A DNA stretch of 64,000 nt from assembly GCF_988242995.1 (NCBI RefSeq), contig NZ_OZ547043.1. One strand, given 5' to 3'. Shown here in pieces: positions 11,576 through 18,076 of this stretch (within the stretch, counting starts at the first letter, position 1; each line of letters opens with the position of its first letter). A program made the translations under genes and the position numbers. The notes beneath the pieces are model-generated. The model was not told where the DNA came from. It saw nothing but the letters and a program-made list of their open reading frames with translations, and did not search any database.

Positions 11576-12556
11576 TCACCTTTCGCGCCAAAACTGCAAA
11601 ATTGCTTCTACAAATCTGTCAGAAATAATCCCCCGACGGGCTGCAGTGCTGAAATGACTGCTTCGCAGTGCCGTCGTCCAGTTCTCCGGTGACCGGTACG
11701 CTGAACCGTAATATCCCGTGCTTAAATCGTCCGGGTCTTCATCAGGCGCGTTCGTCAGTCCTCTTTCACCTTGTTGCTGGAAGTCGACGAAAATAATATT
11801 GGCTAAAACATTATTTTGATAATTGCCATAAATAGCTTCATACGAATGCGGGAAATTTTCTTTCCAGTACCAGGTGGTATCGCCGCAAAACCACGGCGCG
11901 TCAGTAATATTATTAAGCTGAGAATGGTATTGTTTTAGATCCCTACGAAAGGCTTCAACCATATGATTAAAGTGTTGAGGGTGTGACGCGTAGTCACTGG
12001 TCATTAAGTCAAATTCGCCTTGCATCCAGCATGCGCCGAGGAATTTGTTCTGCGGATTTTTTGCCAGTGCGGCTCGCGTTCTGCTGACTAAATCCTGGTA
12101 CAGCGGAGTATCCGTTCCCCAACGACAAGCATCATGGCTGGCTCCGTGCCGTTCTGAATATGTCCCTTCGCTGCCCGCGGTAAAAGCCGATCCGCCACGG
12201 CAACACGGAACGATAAGAATCCCTGCATTATCAGGAATGAAGGGCAGTAATTTCCGTGCAATATGCAGTGCCTGGCCAACGGTGCCGTACTGTGTTTGAT
12301 GATTCGTTGCCAGAGGATGGTGATAACCCTGCATATCCTGAACATCGTGTGGGCAGTGAGTCAGTGGAATAATGTCGTTAAAGTGACATGGCGGGCCTCC
12401 GGGATGCGTATGCGCAAATCTCGCTAATTGTTTAATTCTGGGATGAGGCGCATCTTCCCTGTCCGGTAATGGCAGTCCTTCGCCATACGCCATGGCATTA
12501 GACTGACCAGCAACGGTAAGAACATAGTAATAATCGGGCGATATTATTGCGTTCAT
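11576..12556 (-). CDS. nanS: 9-O-acetyl-N-acetylneuraminate esterase
   Basis: 335-aa ORF; start placed at MNAIISPDYYY... for about 326 aa; recognised as NanS/YjhS. Confidence 0.8.
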   Translation of the reverse strand: MNAIISPDYYYVLTVAGQSNAMAYGEGLPLPDREDAPHPRIKQLARFAHTHPGGPPCHFNDIIPLTHCPHDVQDMQGYHHPLATNHQTQYGTVGQALHIARKLLPFIPDNAGILIVPCCRGGSAFTAGSEGTYSERHGASHDACRWGTDTPLYQDLVSRTRAALAKNPQNKFLGACWMQGEFDLMTSDYASHPQHFNHMVEAFRRDLKQYHSQLNNITDAPWFCGDTTWYWKENFPHSYEAIYGNYQNNVLANIIFVDFQQQGERGLTNAPDEDPDDLSTGYYGSAYRSPENWTTALRSSHFSTAARRGIISDRFVEAILQFWRER

Positions 12557-12620
12557 ATAAATTTCGCGTAATTGAAATGACAAATTGATAGCAGGGCCCC
12601 TTTACCGGGGCCCTGAAGCG

Positions 12621-13727
12621 TTAGTTTTGTACTGTGACTTTATTATCCTTCACAGTGATCAAAACTGAATCCGTCACCGCTTTGCCGCCTGCAGTTTCAC
12701 CGCCAATAATCAATAGACTATTATTCCAGGGCAATGATACTCCGTAGGCCCGACCTTGCGATAATTCACCCGATTTATCCCATTTCCCGTTATGCCAAAG
12801 ATGAATATCAGTGCTATATGATTTTTTCAGGCCTTCATGCGCATAGTTCTTACCGTTCTGGTAATTTTCTCGTGAACCTTTGAATCCGGCCCCTCCGGCA
12901 AATATAAGAGAATCATTGCTTATCCCCGCAAAACCGCCAGCTACGCCATCTGGTGATGAGACGGGAGCAAGCTTATTCCATTTTAAATTATTACCGGTGA
13001 AATCAAGTTCAAATACGGCATCCGTTCGCAATCCTGGTTTGGCTTCGCCATTAATAAGCCAGGTTTTATCACCTTTATTCACAACCGCCGCACCAGCCGT
13101 TCCGTACCAGGGCGATTCGCCAGCGTAACTCCATTGCTGTGTTGAGGGATCAAAAGACAACAGAAACTTATTGAAGAAATAATCTTCTGCTTTTTTGTCA
13201 AAATAGTGAGCATTGATTTTATCTATAGCGGTTGAATCTTTTCCAGCCTCGTTGAGATCTTCAAAATAGCCATTGAAGATATTCTGGTTAACACCACCAG
13301 TAACATAAGCCTTGCCGTTGTGTACAAAAGTCACATGGCCCGCCATGCCCATCGGCGCGTGCGACATCAATTTAACCCAACTATTGGTTTTGGGGTTGTA
13401 TTTGTGTACGTCATTAAATACCTGAGTCAAGCCCTCGCTGTTTTTGCCAATGCCGCCAAACACATACAGATTGCCATCAATAAATGCAGAGGTTGCTTGA
13501 TCTCTTGGTCCGCCAGGGAATGCAGCTAACGCTGTCCATTTTTTATCTTTGGCCTGTGTATCCAGCTTGTACCATGCCGTACCTGCGCTACCTAAACCAA
13601 TGTAGACAGTGTCGTTATCAATTGCTCCGGTACCACTTTTAAATGGCACAGGAGTTTCCGGTAATACAGACGCGTTTGCGGCAAATGAAGCCATCATGAT
13701 AGCAAGCGCCGTTATTGTTTTATTCAT
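12621..13727 (-). CDS. nanM: N-acetylneuraminate epimerase (Kelch-repeat, periplasmic)
   Basis: Start at MNKTITALAIMMASFAANA (signal peptide), ATG checked at 13725-13727; 368 aa; repeated Kelch-like motifs. Confidence 0.9.
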   Translation of the reverse strand: MNKTITALAIMMASFAANASVLPETPVPFKSGTGAIDNDTVYIGLGSAGTAWYKLDTQAKDKKWTALAAFPGGPRDQATSAFIDGNLYVFGGIGKNSEGLTQVFNDVHKYNPKTNSWVKLMSHAPMGMAGHVTFVHNGKAYVTGGVNQNIFNGYFEDLNEAGKDSTAIDKINAHYFDKKAEDYFFNKFLLSFDPSTQQWSYAGESPWYGTAGAAVVNKGDKTWLINGEAKPGLRTDAVFELDFTGNNLKWNKLAPVSSPDGVAGGFAGISNDSLIFAGGAGFKGSRENYQNGKNYAHEGLKKSYSTDIHLWHNGKWDKSGELSQGRAYGVSLPWNNSLLIIGGETAGGKAVTDSVLITVKDNKVTVQN

Positions 13728-13746
13728 TGTGACTGTCTCCTGTCTA

Positions 13747-14463
13747 CTACAGTTTAAATGACACACCAATGCGATAACTGTTTTCCGATAAATTATCTCT
13801 GCCGTTGTAAACACCCTGACGGTCAAGGTAGTCATATTCTATGTATGGCGTAATATCGGGCGTCATATGGTATTGTAGAACAAATGCATTTTCCGTCGCC
13901 CATTTCTTATGGTTTGCATAGCGATAATCGTTCTGTTTGCTGTATAGCGTCGTTTGCCATGCGAAGGTGAAATCACTATTAATATGGTAAGTGACATATC
14001 CATCCCAACGATGAACGTTATCACGAGACATATCACCGGATAAGTCTTGTTGTCGGTAAGCTTTCCAGTCGTAACGATAGCGAATGCCAAAATTAAGATC
14101 TTTTGTCGCGTCCCAGGACAGTTTTACGTAGGGTCCGTAGCGTGTGCCGTTGCTGCTAAAATGCGTTAACATTCCCGGGCGCACCGTCCATTGATCATCA
14201 AGTTTAATCGCGTAATTAACTTCAACCTGAACATCATTGAGTGCGGCATTTTCCTTTTTATTATCATGAATGGTATTCCAGGTATTACTTTCCATGCTTG
14301 CCCACCATCCATTTTGCCATCCCTCACTGACTTTGAGTCGAGTCTCATAGGCGTGGCTTCCACTACGATATCCACCACGTACGTCCAGTGTCGCAGCCTG
14401 AGAAATTAATGGGGACGAAAAGCACAGTAATAATACGCCAGAAAGTATTTTAGCCTTTTTCAT
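13747..14463 (-). CDS. nanC: N-acetylneuraminic acid outer-membrane channel (KdgM family)
   Basis: 238 aa from ATG at 14461-14463 (MKKAKILSGVLLLCFSSPLISQA signal peptide); beta-barrel-like alternation; C-terminal F-x-L. Confidence 0.9.
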   Translation of the reverse strand: MKKAKILSGVLLLCFSSPLISQAATLDVRGGYRSGSHAYETRLKVSEGWQNGWWASMESNTWNTIHDNKKENAALNDVQVEVNYAIKLDDQWTVRPGMLTHFSSNGTRYGPYVKLSWDATKDLNFGIRYRYDWKAYRQQDLSGDMSRDNVHRWDGYVTYHINSDFTFAWQTTLYSKQNDYRYANHKKWATENAFVLQYHMTPDITPYIEYDYLDRQGVYNGRDNLSENSYRIGVSFKL

Positions 14464-14880
14464 AAATTTCACTCATTTGTAGGATACAGAAAGCAATACA
14501 AAGCCCGCATAAACAATTAGCATTTATGTTGTGTAATATTTTTTTGCCAGGCTTATAGTGTCTTTGGCAACCGGTAGCTGTATTTTATATTTTTTTGTAT
14601 AAGGTCTCCTGTGAAAAATCTCTTTTCACATTATTTAAATAAACAGAGATCCAGATTAAATACCTGAGTATAAAATCTCTTCTGATGTTTAATTGATTTG
14701 AATGTTCGTAAGCTATATCACTTACTCAATCCATTTTACCCAGAGTCATAAAATAGAATGTCTGTTGATCTCATTTTCATATTCCTTTCAGACTGAAGTG
14801 CGTTTTCATCACCCGATGAGAAAGAACTGAAGTGATGTTTGCCATAGATTGCGAGATGCCCTGTCTCATTGACTATCTTG

Positions 14881-14904
14881 GTGCACCTTTATACCTGTTA
14901 TACC
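14881..14904 (-). promoter_or_regulatory. NanR-type operator (GGTATA hexamer repeats) upstream of nanC
   Basis: Minus strand reads GGTATAACAGGTATAAAGGTGCAC, two perfect GGTATA repeats plus a degenerate third, in the long nanC-fimB intergenic region. Confidence 0.45.
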
Positions 14905-15918
14905 AGATCAAAAATCACGCAATCCATACAACAAAACCAGATTTGCAATTCGTGTCACAAAATATGTCGATCTTTTTCTAAGAGGAAGATGCCATGTGAA
15001 GCCAGACGAACACTTGCGGTGGTCTTCAAAAACTAAAGATCTTAGTTTAACTATTTGTTTTATAAATAATTTGTTTAGAGTCTAAACAAGGGGAGCTTTG
15101 CAAGCTAACTCAGTGAGCTTGGTGAAAATCAGTGTTTACCCGCCATCAGGCTGAGCATAATTCTCATCATGAAATATGTTTCCTGGTTTGTGGCTTGTAA
15201 CTGGTCACTTCTGAAGTCGATCTGGAGAGGCTTGTTGATGTTGGTGTTTTCAGGATGATGTTTCACTTAGTTTGTTTGCCGTATCGCCCGGCGAATGGCT
15301 GTGATTGAGGAAGGTTTAAGTCGTAGTGACCAAAGCTATATTTACCAACGAATGTAGATGAAAAAATCATCTCCTGCGTTCCCCCATATCTCCAGGATAA
15401 AAAGGAATGTAACAATCTCATGGCGTAAGCTGACGAATCAGCAGGAATAATCGCTAGGGACCTAAGAATTAGCATGATAATAGCCACTAAGAAATTACTG
15501 CGCTCCATGAAATAGCCATTTTGTGGCAAATGGAGTTGACTAATAATGTCATATGTGAGACGGCTAGTTGAACGAATATTAAATTTTGCTGAATTTTTTA
15601 TGTTGATTTTACTTGTTACAGAACATATCACATGATATATAGATAAGATTAGTTGCATTAATGATGAGGGTTATTATTAGATTCGTATCCGATTGATAAA
15701 TATATAAAGGTACATAGCATGCAAGAGCATGGCGTTTGTATGGCAACGTTATTATAATTAACAGTTGCTACTCCATTTAAGTTCACTCAGAAGAACTGGT
15801 CCACTTACGTTAGTTATTAAGCAAACGTTCGCTTTTATAAACATAATCAGGATAAAAATGTTGGATTATTGCTAACCCAGCACAGCTAGTGCGCGTCTGT
15901 AATTATAAGGGAAAAACG

Positions 15919-16521
15919 ATGAAGAATAAGGCTGATAACAAAAAAAGGAACTTCCTGACCCATAGTGAAATCGAATCACTCCTTAAAGCAGCAAATACCG
16001 GGCCTCATGCAGCACGTAATTATTGTCTGACTTTGCTTTGTTTTATTCATGGTTTCCGGGCGAGTGAAATTTGTCGATTGAGGATTTCGGATATTGATCT
16101 TAAGGCAAAGTGTATATATATCCATCGATTAAAAAAAGGCTTTTCAACAACGCACCCGCTATTGAATAAAGAAGTTCAGGCTTTAAAAAACTGGTTGAGT
16201 ATCCGTACTTCGTACCCGCATGCTGAGAGCGAGTGGGTATTTTTATCACGTAAGGGGAATCCGCTTTCTCGGCAACAGTTTTACCATATTATCTCGACTT
16301 CCGGTGGTAATGCCGGGTTGTCACTGGAGATTCATCCGCACATGTTACGCCATTCGTGTGGTTTTGCTTTGGCGAATATGGGAATAGATACGCGACTTAT
16401 CCAGGATTATCTTGGGCATCGCAATATTCGTCATACTGTCTGGTATACCGCCAGCAATGCAGGGCGTTTTTACGGCATCTGGGATAGAGCCAGAGGACGA
16501 CAGCGTCACGCTGTTTTATAG
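15919..16521 (+). CDS. fimB: tyrosine recombinase FimB (fim switch ON/OFF bidirectional)
   Basis: ATG at 15919 (MKNKADNKKRNF...), 200 aa; tyrosine-recombinase motifs (HPHMLRHS...LGHRNIRHTVWYT). Confidence 0.95.
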   Translation: MKNKADNKKRNFLTHSEIESLLKAANTGPHAARNYCLTLLCFIHGFRASEICRLRISDIDLKAKCIYIHRLKKGFSTTHPLLNKEVQALKNWLSIRTSYPHAESEWVFLSRKGNPLSRQQFYHIISTSGGNAGLSLEIHPHMLRHSCGFALANMGIDTRLIQDYLGHRNIRHTVWYTASNAGRFYGIWDRARGRQRHAVL

Positions 16522-16998
16522 AGATAGTTGAGATACCAGGGATGGTGTTAAAAACTACATTATTCTTACGATATATCAAAAATGATTAACCATTTATTAA
16601 TTGATGTTATTGTAAGTGTGATTCTTAATTATCATAATAAACATTAAGTTAACCATATCCATACAAAATACAATGGTTTATGTTCTTCAAAATAAATAAA
16701 CAAAATCATTCATAAATTTACACATCACTTAAAATCTCCTGTTTCCGCACTTTTTTCTTTATTTTTTAAGCAACTGGAAGTTAATCCACTGCAATCTATT
16801 GTTATATTGAATCAAATCAATGAAAATAGATGTTGTCACATCAGTGATATTTTATTTTTGTATGATATTTAATGTAATTGACTGATAGCCACATCACTCC
16901 GTGTGTGGTTATCTTTTTATCTATTGGGCTAATTTTGACCGATTGAGGTTTCCTATAGGTATTCATTCAAATATATCTCAGTTAGGAGTACTACTATT

Positions 16999-17595
16999 GT
17001 GAGTAAACGTCGTTATCTTACCGGTAAAGAAGTTCAGGCCATGATGCAGGCGGTTTGTTACGGGGCAACGGGAGCCAGAGATTATTGTCTTATTCTGTTG
17101 GCATATCGGCATGGGATGCGTATTAGTGAACTGCTTGATCTGCATTATCAGGACCTTGACCTTAATGAAGGTAGAATAAATATTCGCCGACTGAAGAACG
17201 GATTTTCTACCGTTCACCCGTTACGTTTTGATGAGCGTGAAGCCGTGGAACGCTGGACCCAGGAACGTGCTAACTGGAAAGGCGCTGACCGGACTGACGC
17301 TATATTTATTTCTCGCCGCGGGAGTCGGCTTTCTCGCCAGCAGGCCTATCGCATTATTCGCGATGCCGGTATTGAAGCTGGAACCGTAACGCAGACTCAT
17401 CCTCATATGTTAAGGCATGCTTGCGGTTATGAATTGGCGGAGCGTGGTGCAGATACTCGTTTAATTCAGGATTATCTCGGGCATCGAAATATTCGCCATA
17501 CTGTGCGTTATACCGCCAGTAATGCTGCTCGTTTTGCCGGATTATGGGAAAGAAATAATCTCATAAACGAAAAATTAAAAAGAGAAGAGGTTTGA
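16999..17595 (+). CDS. fimE: tyrosine recombinase FimE (ON-to-OFF)
   Basis: 198-aa paralogue of FimB with the same R...HxxR...Y catalytic motifs. Confidence 0.95.
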   Translation: MSKRRYLTGKEVQAMMQAVCYGATGARDYCLILLAYRHGMRISELLDLHYQDLDLNEGRINIRRLKNGFSTVHPLRFDEREAVERWTQERANWKGADRTDAIFISRRGSRLSRQQAYRIIRDAGIEAGTVTQTHPHMLRHACGYELAERGADTRLIQDYLGHRNIRHTVRYTASNAARFAGLWERNNLINEKLKREEV

Positions 17596-17643
17596 TTTAA
17601 CTTATTGATAATAAAGTTAAAAAAACAAATAAATACAAGACAA

Positions 17644-17957
17644 TTGGGGCCAAACTGTCCATATCATAAATAAGTTACGTATTTTTTCTCAAGCATAAAA
17701 ATATTAAAAAACGACAAAAAGCATCTAACTGTTTGATATGTAAATTATTTCTATTGTAAATTAATTTCACATCACCTCCGCTATATGTAAAGCTAACGTT
17801 TCTGTGGCTCGACGCATCTTCCTCATTCTTCTCTCCAAAAACCACCTCATGCAATATAAACATCTATAAATAAAGATAACAATAGAATATTAAGCCAACA
17901 AATAAACTGAAAAAGTTTGTCCGCGATGCTTTCCTCTATGAGTCAAAATGGCCCCAA
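17644..17957. promoter_or_regulatory. fimS: fimS invertible element (314 bp) bounded by 9-bp inverted repeats
   Basis: TTGGGGCCA at 17644-17652 and its reverse complement TGGCCCCAA at 17949-17957, between fimE and fimA. Confidence 0.85.
17663..17692 (-). promoter_or_regulatory. sigma70-like promoter inside fimS, reading toward fimE (away from fimA)
   Basis: Minus strand TTGAGA (plus 17687-17692), 18-nt spacer, TATGAT (plus 17663-17668), a few bp inside the left inverted repeat. Confidence 0.5.
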
Positions 17958-18076
17958 ATGTTTCATCTTTTGGGGGAAAACTGTGCAGTGTTGGCAGTCA
18001 AACTCGTTGACAAAACAAAGTGTACAGAACGACTGCCCATGTCGATTTAGAAATAGTTTTTTGAAAGGAAAGCAGC

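What the first reader, a model, noticed from the sequence alone, without database searches (positions are those of the whole stretch)
14464..15918. 1.45-kb AT-rich non-coding region between nanC and fimB with a NanR-type operator
An unusually long intergenic interval holds GGTATA-repeat operator sequence (14881-14904) and many A/T tracts, and no credible ORF (the 131-aa ORF at 15263-15658 is low-complexity). It likely integrates sialic-acid/GlcNAc signals (NanR, NagC) into both nanC expression and fimB-driven phase switching.
Basis: partly seen in the sequence, partly recalled or inferred. Interest (0 to 1): 0.3.

Follow-up and report, generated by a model that had tools for sequence, protein, structure and literature searches.

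The report
Known nanC–fimB regulatory intergenic region

Summary
Window 14464-15918 is a 1455-bp gap between nanC (13747-14463, minus) and fimB (15919-16521, plus). It has 36% G+C against 48% for the window, and is three times longer than any other gap in the 50 kb that I checked against an annotated record.

The minus strand at 14904-14882 reads GGTATA-ACA-GGTATA-AA-GGTGCA. This is the NanR operator, followed by a GATC. Its 20-base core is expected 0.01 times by chance.

The window is E. coli, 99.8% identical to K-12 here. Every published K-12 landmark that I could check maps exactly:
- the fimB transcription start (15648, 271-nt leader)
- the two SlyA sites
- the restriction sites used to build published deletions

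Two sites fitting the NagC rule lie 212 bp apart, with IHF-like motifs midway. In 11 diverse genomes the operator blocks and the fimB promoter never vary. The spacer between the NagC sites is hypervariable.

The 131-aa ORF is broken in K-12 and other strains and is not a gene.

The only mildly new item is the strongly elevated diversity of the spacer at 15014-15135.

The parts
14464..15918 (.). nanC-fimB intergenic regulatory region, 1455 bp, 36% G+C
   Evidence: Present in 5109 of 5426 complete E. coli genomes. Nothing is annotated inside it.
13747..14463 (-). nanC, the N-acetylneuraminate outer-membrane channel (flanking gene; first gene of nanCMS)
   Evidence: RefSeq annotation WP_001295734.1. 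Related to KdgM/OmpL-family porins.
15919..16521 (+). fimB, the tyrosine-type DNA invertase of the type 1 fimbrial switch (flanking gene)
   Evidence: RefSeq annotation. NCBIfam NF007370 scores 458 bits against a cutoff of 221.
14882..14904 (-). NanR operator (ONR): GGTATA-ACA-GGTATA-AA-GGTGCA, two perfect repeats and one degenerate repeat; -766 to -744 from the fimB start
   Evidence: The same 20-base core sits at the nanA and nanX operators. Invariant in 11 genomes. Literature.
14906..14909 (.). GATC (Dam site) one base from the NanR operator
   Evidence: A GATC in the same position occurs at most nanA-type operators across Enterobacteriaceae. PMC5155068 reports NanR binding within 5 bp of GATC sites at nanA, nanC and yjhB.
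14885..14937 (-). 53-bp promoter-operator block with a paralogue upstream of nanXY (yjhBC)
   Evidence: A second BLAST place at 90.6% identity lies upstream of nanX.
14897..14902 (-). Putative nanC -10 hexamer TATAAC inside the first NanR repeat (inferred start near 14890, giving a leader of about 425 nt)
   Evidence: Inference from paralogy with the nanA and nanX promoter-operators and from the CRP-like site centred 61.5 bp upstream. Not mapped here.
14464..14890 (-). Inferred long nanC 5' leader, more conserved than the neutral proxy, with no unusual RNA structure
   Evidence: 6.5% variable columns against 11.7% at four-fold sites, P=2.5e-4. Folding z-score -0.10. No Rfam hit.
14944..14966 (.). 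NagC-type site, candidate ONC1: TGCAATTCGTGTCACAAAATATG (centre 14955). It overlaps the best CRP-like site of the region, TGTGACACGAATTGCA (14944-14959)
   Evidence: Fits the NagC rule of TT at -6/-5 and AA at +5/+6 (PMC4288165; scan). Invariant in 11 genomes.
14969..14972 (.). GATC next to candidate ONC1; reads GATA in some lineages
15014..15135 (.). Hypervariable spacer between the two NagC-type sites
   Evidence: 34% variable columns against 11.7% at four-fold sites, P=5e-11. Population-level contrast.
15048..15073 (.). Two adjacent IHF-consensus matches (one mismatch each) at the midpoint between the NagC-type sites
   Evidence: The midpoint is (14955+15167)/2 = 15061. That IHF binds midway between the sites comes from my memory of Sohanpal 2007, a paper not held in the library.
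15156..15178 (.). NagC-type site, candidate ONC2: CATAATTCTCATCATGAAATATG (centre 15167, C/G at both +/-11 positions; right edge is -470)
   Evidence: Invariant in 11 genomes, within invariant block 15156-15182. Its position matches.
15454..15480 (+). SlyA operators OSA2 (CTAGGGACCTAA, 15454-15465) and OSA1 (TTAGCATGATAA, 15469-15480), overlapping H-NS sites
   Evidence: Exact matches to the sequences in PMC3173223. They lie at -194 to -168.
15613..15648 (+). fimB sigma-70 promoter: -35 TTGTTA (15613-15618), 17-nt spacer, -10 TATATA (15636-15641), start at 15648
   Evidence: The 271-nt 5' UTR and the deletion endpoint next to the -10 come from PMC3911127. Coordinates. The promoter lies in a 104-bp invariant block, 15575-15678.
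15648..15918 (+). fimB 5' UTR (271 nt), with SphI 15717-15722, the ops-like element 15730-15741 and Shine-Dalgarno AAGGGA 15907-15912; published target of the sRNA MicA
   Evidence: 5.2% variable columns, P=1.7e-4 against the neutral proxy.
15263..15658 (-). Spurious 131-aa ORF that overlaps the fimB promoter and SlyA/H-NS sites; not a gene

Best explanation
This is the divergent nanC-fimB control region of E. coli. It is a long, AT-rich, H-NS-bound spacer that carries two outward-facing promoters and a shared cluster of sugar-responsive operators.

Without sialic acid, NanR dimers bind cooperatively to the GGTATA repeats at 14882-14904. This site overlaps the inferred nanC -10 and start, so NanR represses nanCMS. 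From about 750 bp upstream the same bound NanR raises fimB transcription. NagC binds two 23-bp sites, 14944-14966 and 15156-15178, whose centres are 212 bp apart. It probably loops the DNA between them with help from IHF bound midway. NagC also raises fimB transcription and modulates nanC.

Neu5Ac releases NanR. GlcNAc-6-P, which is also the breakdown product of Neu5Ac, releases NagC. Host-derived amino sugars therefore turn nanCMS on and fimB down, which lowers FimB-mediated OFF-to-ON switching of type 1 fimbriae.

Closer to fimB, SlyA (15454-15480) counteracts H-NS silencing of the sigma-70 promoter (start at 15648). The 271-nt leader is a post-transcriptional control target for MicA.

Shown in the literature: binding of NanR, NagC, SlyA and H-NS; the fimB start; the effects of the two sugars.
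Shown here: every landmark I could check is present at the predicted coordinate, and the sites are conserved.
Inferred: the exact nanC -10 and start, the CRP site, the exact NagC and IHF site boundaries, and how activation works over 500-750 bp. The literature itself calls that last mechanism unresolved.
For: Identity of the locus: 100% identical to E. coli strain 7/2 and 99.8% to K-12. The flanking genes are annotated nanC and fimB.

Operator: the 20-base core is unique in the window, with 0.01 matches expected by chance. The same core sits at the nanA and nanX operators in E. coli and at about 90 loci across Enterobacteriaceae, usually preceded by GATC. A 53-bp paralogue lies upstream of nanXY.

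Published positions reproduce exactly. SlyA sites at -194 to -167 place the start at 15648, and the 271-nt UTR gives the same base. The Shine-Dalgarno, SphI, ops-like element and ApaLI (-1033) sites all fall where the papers place them. ONR to ONC2 'around 760 to 470 bp upstream' corresponds to 14888 to 15178.

NagC rule: of 15 TT-N9-AA 23-mers in the region, only 3 pass the arm and +/-11 filter. Two of these are the proposed sites, 212 bp apart.

Conservation: in 11 genomes, 14880-14937, 14939-14971, 15156-15182 and 15575-15678 never vary, while the neutral proxy is 11.7% variable. The 93-bp operator block is 100% identical in 3997 of 5099 genomes. A lineage only 88% identical across the aligned stretch (part of nanC and most of the spacer) keeps all three operators.

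Literature: NanR SELEX peak in this spacer. A two-repeat GGTATA operator binds NanR at 25 nM. Two RpoD holoenzyme peaks and H-NS binding are reported in this spacer. nanC is a Spot 42 target.
Against: None of this contradicts the model, but several steps are not demonstrated here. The primary papers (Sohanpal 2004 and 2007, El-Labany 2003, Condemine 2005, Kalivoda 2003 and 2013) were not in the library. The exact footprint boundaries of ONC1, ONC2 and IHF, and the nanC transcription start, are therefore my inference. It rests on motif rules, spacing, conservation and secondary citations. The third NanR repeat is degenerate (GGTGCA), so occupancy may be two dimers rather than three. The consensus promoter scan did not find either real promoter. 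The 11 genomes are related, so the binomial P values overstate independence. The mechanism of long-range activation of fimB is described as unclear in the literature.
Confidence: 0.93

Rival explanations
1. The NanR operator serves only nanC. It is the nanC promoter-operator, and its position 750 bp upstream of fimB is incidental. Under this reading the long spacer is mostly neutral or H-NS-coated filler with no role in phase switching.
For: The operator is a paralogue of the nanA and nanX promoter-operators. It lies far from the fimB start at 15648. The stretch between the operators and the fimB promoter evolves at or above the neutral rate (15179-15453 is 15.6% variable). Sequence alone cannot show action at a distance.
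Against: Published genetics state that NanR and NagC activate fimB from these operators, and that nanR or nagC deletion, or adding the sugars, lowers FimB-LacZ (PMC3173223; PMC5401889). The second NagC-type site at 15156-15178 is invariant, although it lies about 280 bp upstream of the inferred nanC start on the fimB side.
Confidence: 0.04
2. The region hides an unannotated gene: either the 131-aa ORF at 15263-15658 (minus strand) or a small RNA. That gene would explain the spacer's length.
For: A 131-aa ORF exists in this strain. The central part, 15100-15400, has higher G+C (0.44-0.455) than the flanks. Minor-sigma and RpoD holoenzyme SELEX peaks occur at several places in the spacer.
Against: The ORF has a stop in K-12, and frameshifts or stops in 4 of 9 other genomes. 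Its substitutions favour codon position 2. It has no Pfam or NCBIfam match. Rfam finds nothing at E<=1. PGAP and the K-12 curated annotation list nothing here. The ORF overlaps the mapped fimB promoter and SlyA sites.
Confidence: 0.02
3. The GGTATA repeats are a chance feature of AT-rich DNA.
For: Single GGTATA hexamers are no more frequent in the window than in shuffles (23 found, 18 expected).
Against: The spaced 20-mer is expected 0.01 times by chance. It is identical at three NanR-regulated operons and at 90 loci in other species. It is invariant in thousands of E. coli genomes.
Confidence: 0.01

Closest known systems
E. coli K-12 nanC-fimB intergenic region (NC_000913.3 4539502-4540956), as dissected by the Blomfield and Plumbridge laboratories: ONR, ONC1, ONC2, IHF, SlyA and H-NS sites, fimB promoter, 271-nt UTR
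   Same: Same locus. It is 1455 bp long and 99.8% identical, differing by 3 substitutions (15073, 15076, 15393). Every published landmark I could check is at the expected coordinate.
   Different: Nothing of substance. In this strain the spurious 131-aa ORF happens to be open, whereas K-12 has a stop in it.
nanA promoter-operator of the nanATEK-yhcH operon, the canonical (GGTATA)3 NanR operator (Kalivoda 2003; Horne 2021, PDB 6WFQ and 6WG7)
   Same: Identical 20-base core GGTATAACAGGTATAAAGGT. A GATC lies immediately upstream. An 'ATTGC' element sits at the -35 position.
   Different: The third repeat is GGTGCA here instead of GGTATA. The nanA start codon lies about 50 nt downstream of its operator (from memory; not measured here). 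nanC's lies about 420 nt downstream. Here the operator also acts positively on a second, divergent gene.
nanXY (yjhBC) promoter-operator
   Same: A 53-bp paralogous block at 90.6% identity, including the operator and the upstream promoter sequence.
   Different: nanX keeps a perfect third repeat. It has no associated NagC pair and no divergent recombinase gene.
Two-operator NagC loops with an architectural protein or CRP between the sites (nagE-nagBACD, chbBCARFG, glmUS)
   Same: Two 23-bp quasi-palindromic sites with conserved TT/AA. They are spaced to allow looping, and a CRP-like site overlaps one operator.
   Different: Here NagC acts as an activator of a promoter about 480-690 bp away rather than as a local repressor. 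The helper protein is IHF.

Membership tests
NanR (GntR/FadR-type) sialoregulon operator | Two or three GGTATA repeats separated by 2-3 nt (GGTATA-N3-GGTATA-N2-GGTATA) | tested here: met
   The minus strand at 14904-14882 reads GGTATA ACA GGTATA AA GGTGCA: two perfect repeats with correct spacing, and a third with 4 of 6 bases. A two-repeat operator binds NanR at 25 nM (PMC8012715).
NanR (GntR/FadR-type) sialoregulon operator | Located at the promoter of a sialic-acid utilisation operon | tested here: met
   It lies upstream of nanC-nanM-nanS on the same strand. It is paralogous to the nanA and nanX promoter-operators.
NanR (GntR/FadR-type) sialoregulon operator | Physical binding of NanR, relieved by Neu5Ac | not testable with these tools
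   Literature only: SELEX peak in the nanC/fimB spacer (PMC5934670); Sohanpal 2004 as cited.
NagC (ROK family) operator pair | 23-bp quasi-palindrome with TT at -6/-5 and AA at +5/+6; C or G at +/-11 in high-affinity sites | tested here: met
   14944-14966 has one C/G at +/-11. 15156-15178 has C/G at both positions. The rule is loose: 15 TT-N9-AA 23-mers occur in this AT-rich region. The assignment therefore also rests on conservation and on published distances.
NagC (ROK family) operator pair | Two cooperating sites at looping distance | tested here: met
   The centres are 212 bp apart. The literature says fimB needs two NagC sites.
NagC (ROK family) operator pair | NagC binding in vitro and release by GlcNAc-6-P | not testable with these tools
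   Literature only.
Published K-12 fimB promoter region | SlyA operators, sigma-70 promoter, 271-nt 5' UTR with SphI, ops-like element and Shine-Dalgarno at the published distances | tested here: met
   All are exact sequence matches at the published offsets.
Protein-coding gene (131-aa ORF) | Reading frame conserved among strains, with a coding substitution pattern or a family match | tested here: not met
   Stops and frameshifts in 5 of 10 other genomes; substitutions enriched at codon position 2; no Pfam or NCBIfam hit.
Known structured RNA (Rfam) | Covariance-model match | tested here: not met
   No hit at E<=1 over 13500-17500. The nanC leader folds no better than shuffled sequence, z = -0.10.

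The most novel reading that the evidence does not exclude
The 122-bp spacer between the two NagC operators (15014-15135) carries the IHF-like motifs. It is about three times more polymorphic than four-fold degenerate sites, and it occurs as several deeply diverged haplotypes, while the operators on either side are frozen. If this diversity is maintained by selection or recombination, and is not simply relaxed constraint in an AT-rich H-NS-bound tract, then different E. coli lineages may have tuned the bending or IHF occupancy of the NagC loop. That would change how strongly fimbrial phase switching responds to host amino sugars. The polymorphic loss of the Dam site beside ONC1 (GATC to GATA) would be a second lineage-specific tuning point.
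Probability: 0.15. Interest if true: 0.4.

Novelty: already known. Interest (0 to 1): 0.12.

Why it matters
The region links host-derived inflammation signals, sialic acid and GlcNAc, to expression of a major adhesin and virulence factor. It is a textbook example of a long bacterial spacer that integrates many regulators (NanR, NagC, IHF, SlyA, H-NS, CRP, ppGpp/DksA, MicA, Spot 42). The population-level contrast between frozen operators and a hypervariable spacer is a small addition. It could guide comparative work on strain-specific fimbrial regulation.

Tried and rejected
- Rfam scan of 13500-17500 at E<=1 found nothing.
- Folding the inferred nanC leader gave z = -0.10, so no special structure.
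- The consensus promoter scan returned 3 hits where shuffles give 6.6. None corresponds to the mapped fimB promoter. One of them, TTGGCA-16-TATATT at 14564-14591, is the same motif listed by a SELEX paper as a predicted promoter, but it lies 1.08 kb from the mapped fimB start.
- The 131-aa ORF and two smaller ORFs had no Pfam or NCBIfam hits and are not conserved.
- I tried to read the primary papers: Sohanpal 2004 (PMC526197), Kalivoda 2013 (PMC3807447), Condemine 2005 (PMC1064066) and Beisel 2011 (PMC3072601). None is held. Site boundaries therefore rest on secondary citations plus sequence analysis.
- The genome-contig scan for the 20-mer aimed to find nanC-fimB orthologues outside E. coli. 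It returned almost only nanA-type operators. The nanC-type context appeared only in E. coli sequences and in one divergent E. coli-labelled genome, E69.
- A direct position-by-position comparison of the window with strain 7/2 over 50 kb gave 23,913 mismatches. I read this as an indel offset somewhere and did not resolve it. The nanC and fimB coordinates themselves coincide.

Full report
**What is there**

Window 14464-15918 is the gap between nanC (13747-14463, minus strand) and fimB (15919-16521, plus strand). An early note of mine placed the fimB ATG at 15920. Re-reading the sequence and the RefSeq annotation shows it at 15919.

G+C is 0.36 against 0.484 for the window, and there are eleven A or T runs of five or more. 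In the 50 kb that I checked against the annotated strain 7/2 record, the next longest gap is 490 bp and the median is 70 bp.

The region is 100% identical to E. coli strain 7/2 and 99.8% identical to K-12. It is found in 5109 of 5426 complete E. coli genomes. Neither PGAP nor the curated K-12 record annotates anything inside it. Rfam finds nothing.

**The operator**

The minus strand at 14904-14882 reads GGTATA-ACA-GGTATA-AA-GGTGCA. A GATC follows at 14906-14909.

- The 20-base core occurs once in the window, where 0.01 matches are expected from shuffles. Single GGTATA hexamers are not enriched.
- A scan of one genome per bacterial species found the same 20-mer at 90 loci. Nearly all are nanA-type operators of Enterobacteriaceae, and most have a GATC in the same upstream position.
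- In E. coli, a 53-bp block (14885-14937) has a paralogue at 90.6% identity upstream of nanXY.
- NanR needs at least two repeats. A two-repeat operator binds as tightly as three repeats (25 nM) but forms only two complexes (PMC8012715). The nanC site, with two perfect repeats and one 4-of-6 repeat, is therefore a competent operator.

**Mapping the published K-12 landmarks**

McVicker et al. 2011 give the SlyA operator sequences and place them 194-167 bp upstream of the fimB start. Both occur exactly, at 15454-15465 and 15469-15480, which puts +1 at 15648. Moores et al. 2014 independently state a 271-nt 5' UTR, and 15919 minus 271 is 15648.

With that origin:

| Landmark | Window position | Relation to published value |
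|---|---|---|
| -35 TTGTTA | 15613-15618 | -35 region; 17-nt spacer to the -10 |
| -10 TATATA | 15636-15641 | ends next to the -277 deletion endpoint |
| SphI | 15717-15722 | site used in the published deletions |
| ops-like element | 15730-15741 | 8 bp after SphI, as published |
| Shine-Dalgarno AAGGGA | 15907-15912 | -12 to -7 |
| ApaLI (inside the third NanR repeat) | 14881-14886 | ends at -1033 from the ORF |

All of these are as published. [quoted passage not shown] That corresponds to 14888 through 15178.

**NagC, IHF and CRP sites (inferred)**

The only fully conserved features of NagC sites are TT at -6/-5 and AA at +5/+6 of a 23-bp quasi-palindrome. High-affinity sites also have C or G at +/-11 (PMC4288165). 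Of the 15 TT-N9-AA 23-mers in the region, three pass a filter on AT-rich arms and a +/-11 C/G:

- 14944-14966
- 15156-15178, with C/G at both ends and a right edge exactly at -470
- one at the fimB start

The first two have centres 212 bp apart. This matches my recollection of the Sohanpal 2007 abstract, a paper that is not held. Two IHF-consensus matches (one mismatch each) lie at 15048-15073, around the midpoint of 15061.

The best CRP-like site of the whole region, TGTGACACGAATTGCA (14944-14959), overlaps the first NagC site. It is centred 61.5 bp from a start at about 14890. That start is what TATAAC (14902-14897, inside the first NanR repeat) would give as a -10. This nanC promoter assignment is an inference. 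It implies a leader of about 425 nt. The leader is more conserved than the neutral proxy but has no unusual fold.

**Conservation**

I aligned the window with K-12 and nine E. coli genomes chosen across the identity range. Variable columns were:

| Segment | Variable columns |
|---|---|
| Four-fold degenerate sites of nanC and fimB (neutral proxy) | 11.7% |
| Whole spacer | 10.2% |
| Operator block 14880-14972 | 2.2% |
| NanR operator and each NagC-type site | 0 |
| fimB core promoter 15580-15660 (inside a 104-bp invariant run, 15575-15678) | 0 |
| fimB 5' UTR | 5.2% |
| nanC leader | 6.5% |
| 15014-15135, between the NagC sites | 34% (P=5e-11) |

The genomes are related, so the P values are indicative only.

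Population data agree. The 93-bp operator block is 100% identical in 3997 of 5099 genomes. The 122-bp spacer is detectable by megablast in only 3156 genomes, and 1598 of those are below 95% identity. A divergent E. coli-labelled genome (E69), 88% identical over the aligned stretch of part of nanC plus most of the spacer, keeps the operator (third repeat GGTACA) and both NagC-type sites. Its spacer is scrambled.

**No hidden gene**

The 131-aa ORF (15263-15658, minus strand) overlaps the fimB promoter and the SlyA and H-NS sites. It has a stop in K-12, and stops or frameshifts in four other genomes. Its substitutions favour codon position 2. It has no family match.

**Mechanism**

This combines the literature with the positions confirmed here.

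- NanR bound at the repeats represses nanCMS and, from about 750 bp away, stimulates fimB.
- NagC bound at two sites, looped with IHF, also stimulates fimB.
- Neu5Ac and GlcNAc-6-P release them. This induces nanCMS, lowers FimB and so lowers OFF-to-ON switching.
- SlyA counteracts H-NS near the promoter. MicA acts on the leader. Spot 42 acts on nanC.
- RpoD and RpoS holoenzyme and H-NS bind the spacer in SELEX.

How activation works over 500-750 bp remains unresolved in the literature.

**Verdict**

The feature is already known in detail. Interest is low, except for the modest observation of a hypervariable inter-operator spacer and a polymorphic Dam site.

Noticed in passing
window 15014-15135: The spacer between the two NagC-type sites is hypervariable. 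34% of its columns vary in 11 genomes, against 11.7% at four-fold sites. It falls into about four haplotype groups. Megablast finds it in only 3156 of the roughly 5100 genomes that carry the region, whereas the adjacent 93-bp operator block is identical in 3997 genomes.
   Followed up: partly
window 14969-14972: The GATC (Dam site) beside candidate ONC1 reads GATA in two of the nine other E. coli genomes (L097 and the O111:H8 strain L099) and in the divergent E69 genome. Hits trimmed at position 92 of 93 suggest this is common in the population.
   Followed up: partly
L094 (NZ_CM169490.1), breakpoint corresponding to window ~15655: In some strains (H28, H29) an IS1 sits just downstream of the fimB transcription start. 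Everything from fimB to most of fimH is deleted, joining the spacer to gntP. These strains keep nanCMS and the operators but lack type 1 fimbriae.
   Followed up: partly
L083 (CP089930.1, E. coli E69): A divergent lineage, 88% identical over the aligned part of nanC and the spacer, keeps the NanR operator (with third repeat GGTACA), both NagC-type sites and the nanC leader. It carries a 17-bp insertion near window 15220.
   Followed up: partly
L008 (contig of a 'Bacteroides' MAG) and L074 ('Methylobacterium mesophilicum', 265-bp contig): Both contigs carry E. coli nanC-type or nanX-type operator sequence, identical or nearly so over the stretch inspected. This most likely reflects contamination of those assemblies.
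   Followed up: no
window 17644-17957 (fimS): The invertible fim switch, bounded by 9-bp inverted repeats at 17644 and 17949, is in the same orientation as in the MG1655 reference. Its inner 296 bp are 100% identical to MG1655.
   Followed up: partly
window 11576-12583 (nanS): The window holds an uninterrupted 335-aa ORF for nanS (326 aa if counted from the internal Met where the sequence MNAIISPD begins). RefSeq annotates the corresponding gene of strain 7/2 as an incomplete pseudogene at 11942-12556, next to the small gene ythB. This may be an annotation artefact.
   Followed up: no
window 16522-16998 and 17596-18075: The fimB-fimE and fimE-fimA gaps (477 and 480 bp) are even more AT-rich (25-30% G+C) than the nanC-fimB spacer.
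   Followed up: no
window ~15697 and ~15105: Published RpoS-holoenzyme SELEX peaks lie in this spacer, with intensity 127.7 at old K-12 coordinate 4538758 and 5.5 at 4538166. Converted with an offset I supplied from memory, they fall near the fimB promoter/leader and in the hypervariable spacer.
   Followed up: no
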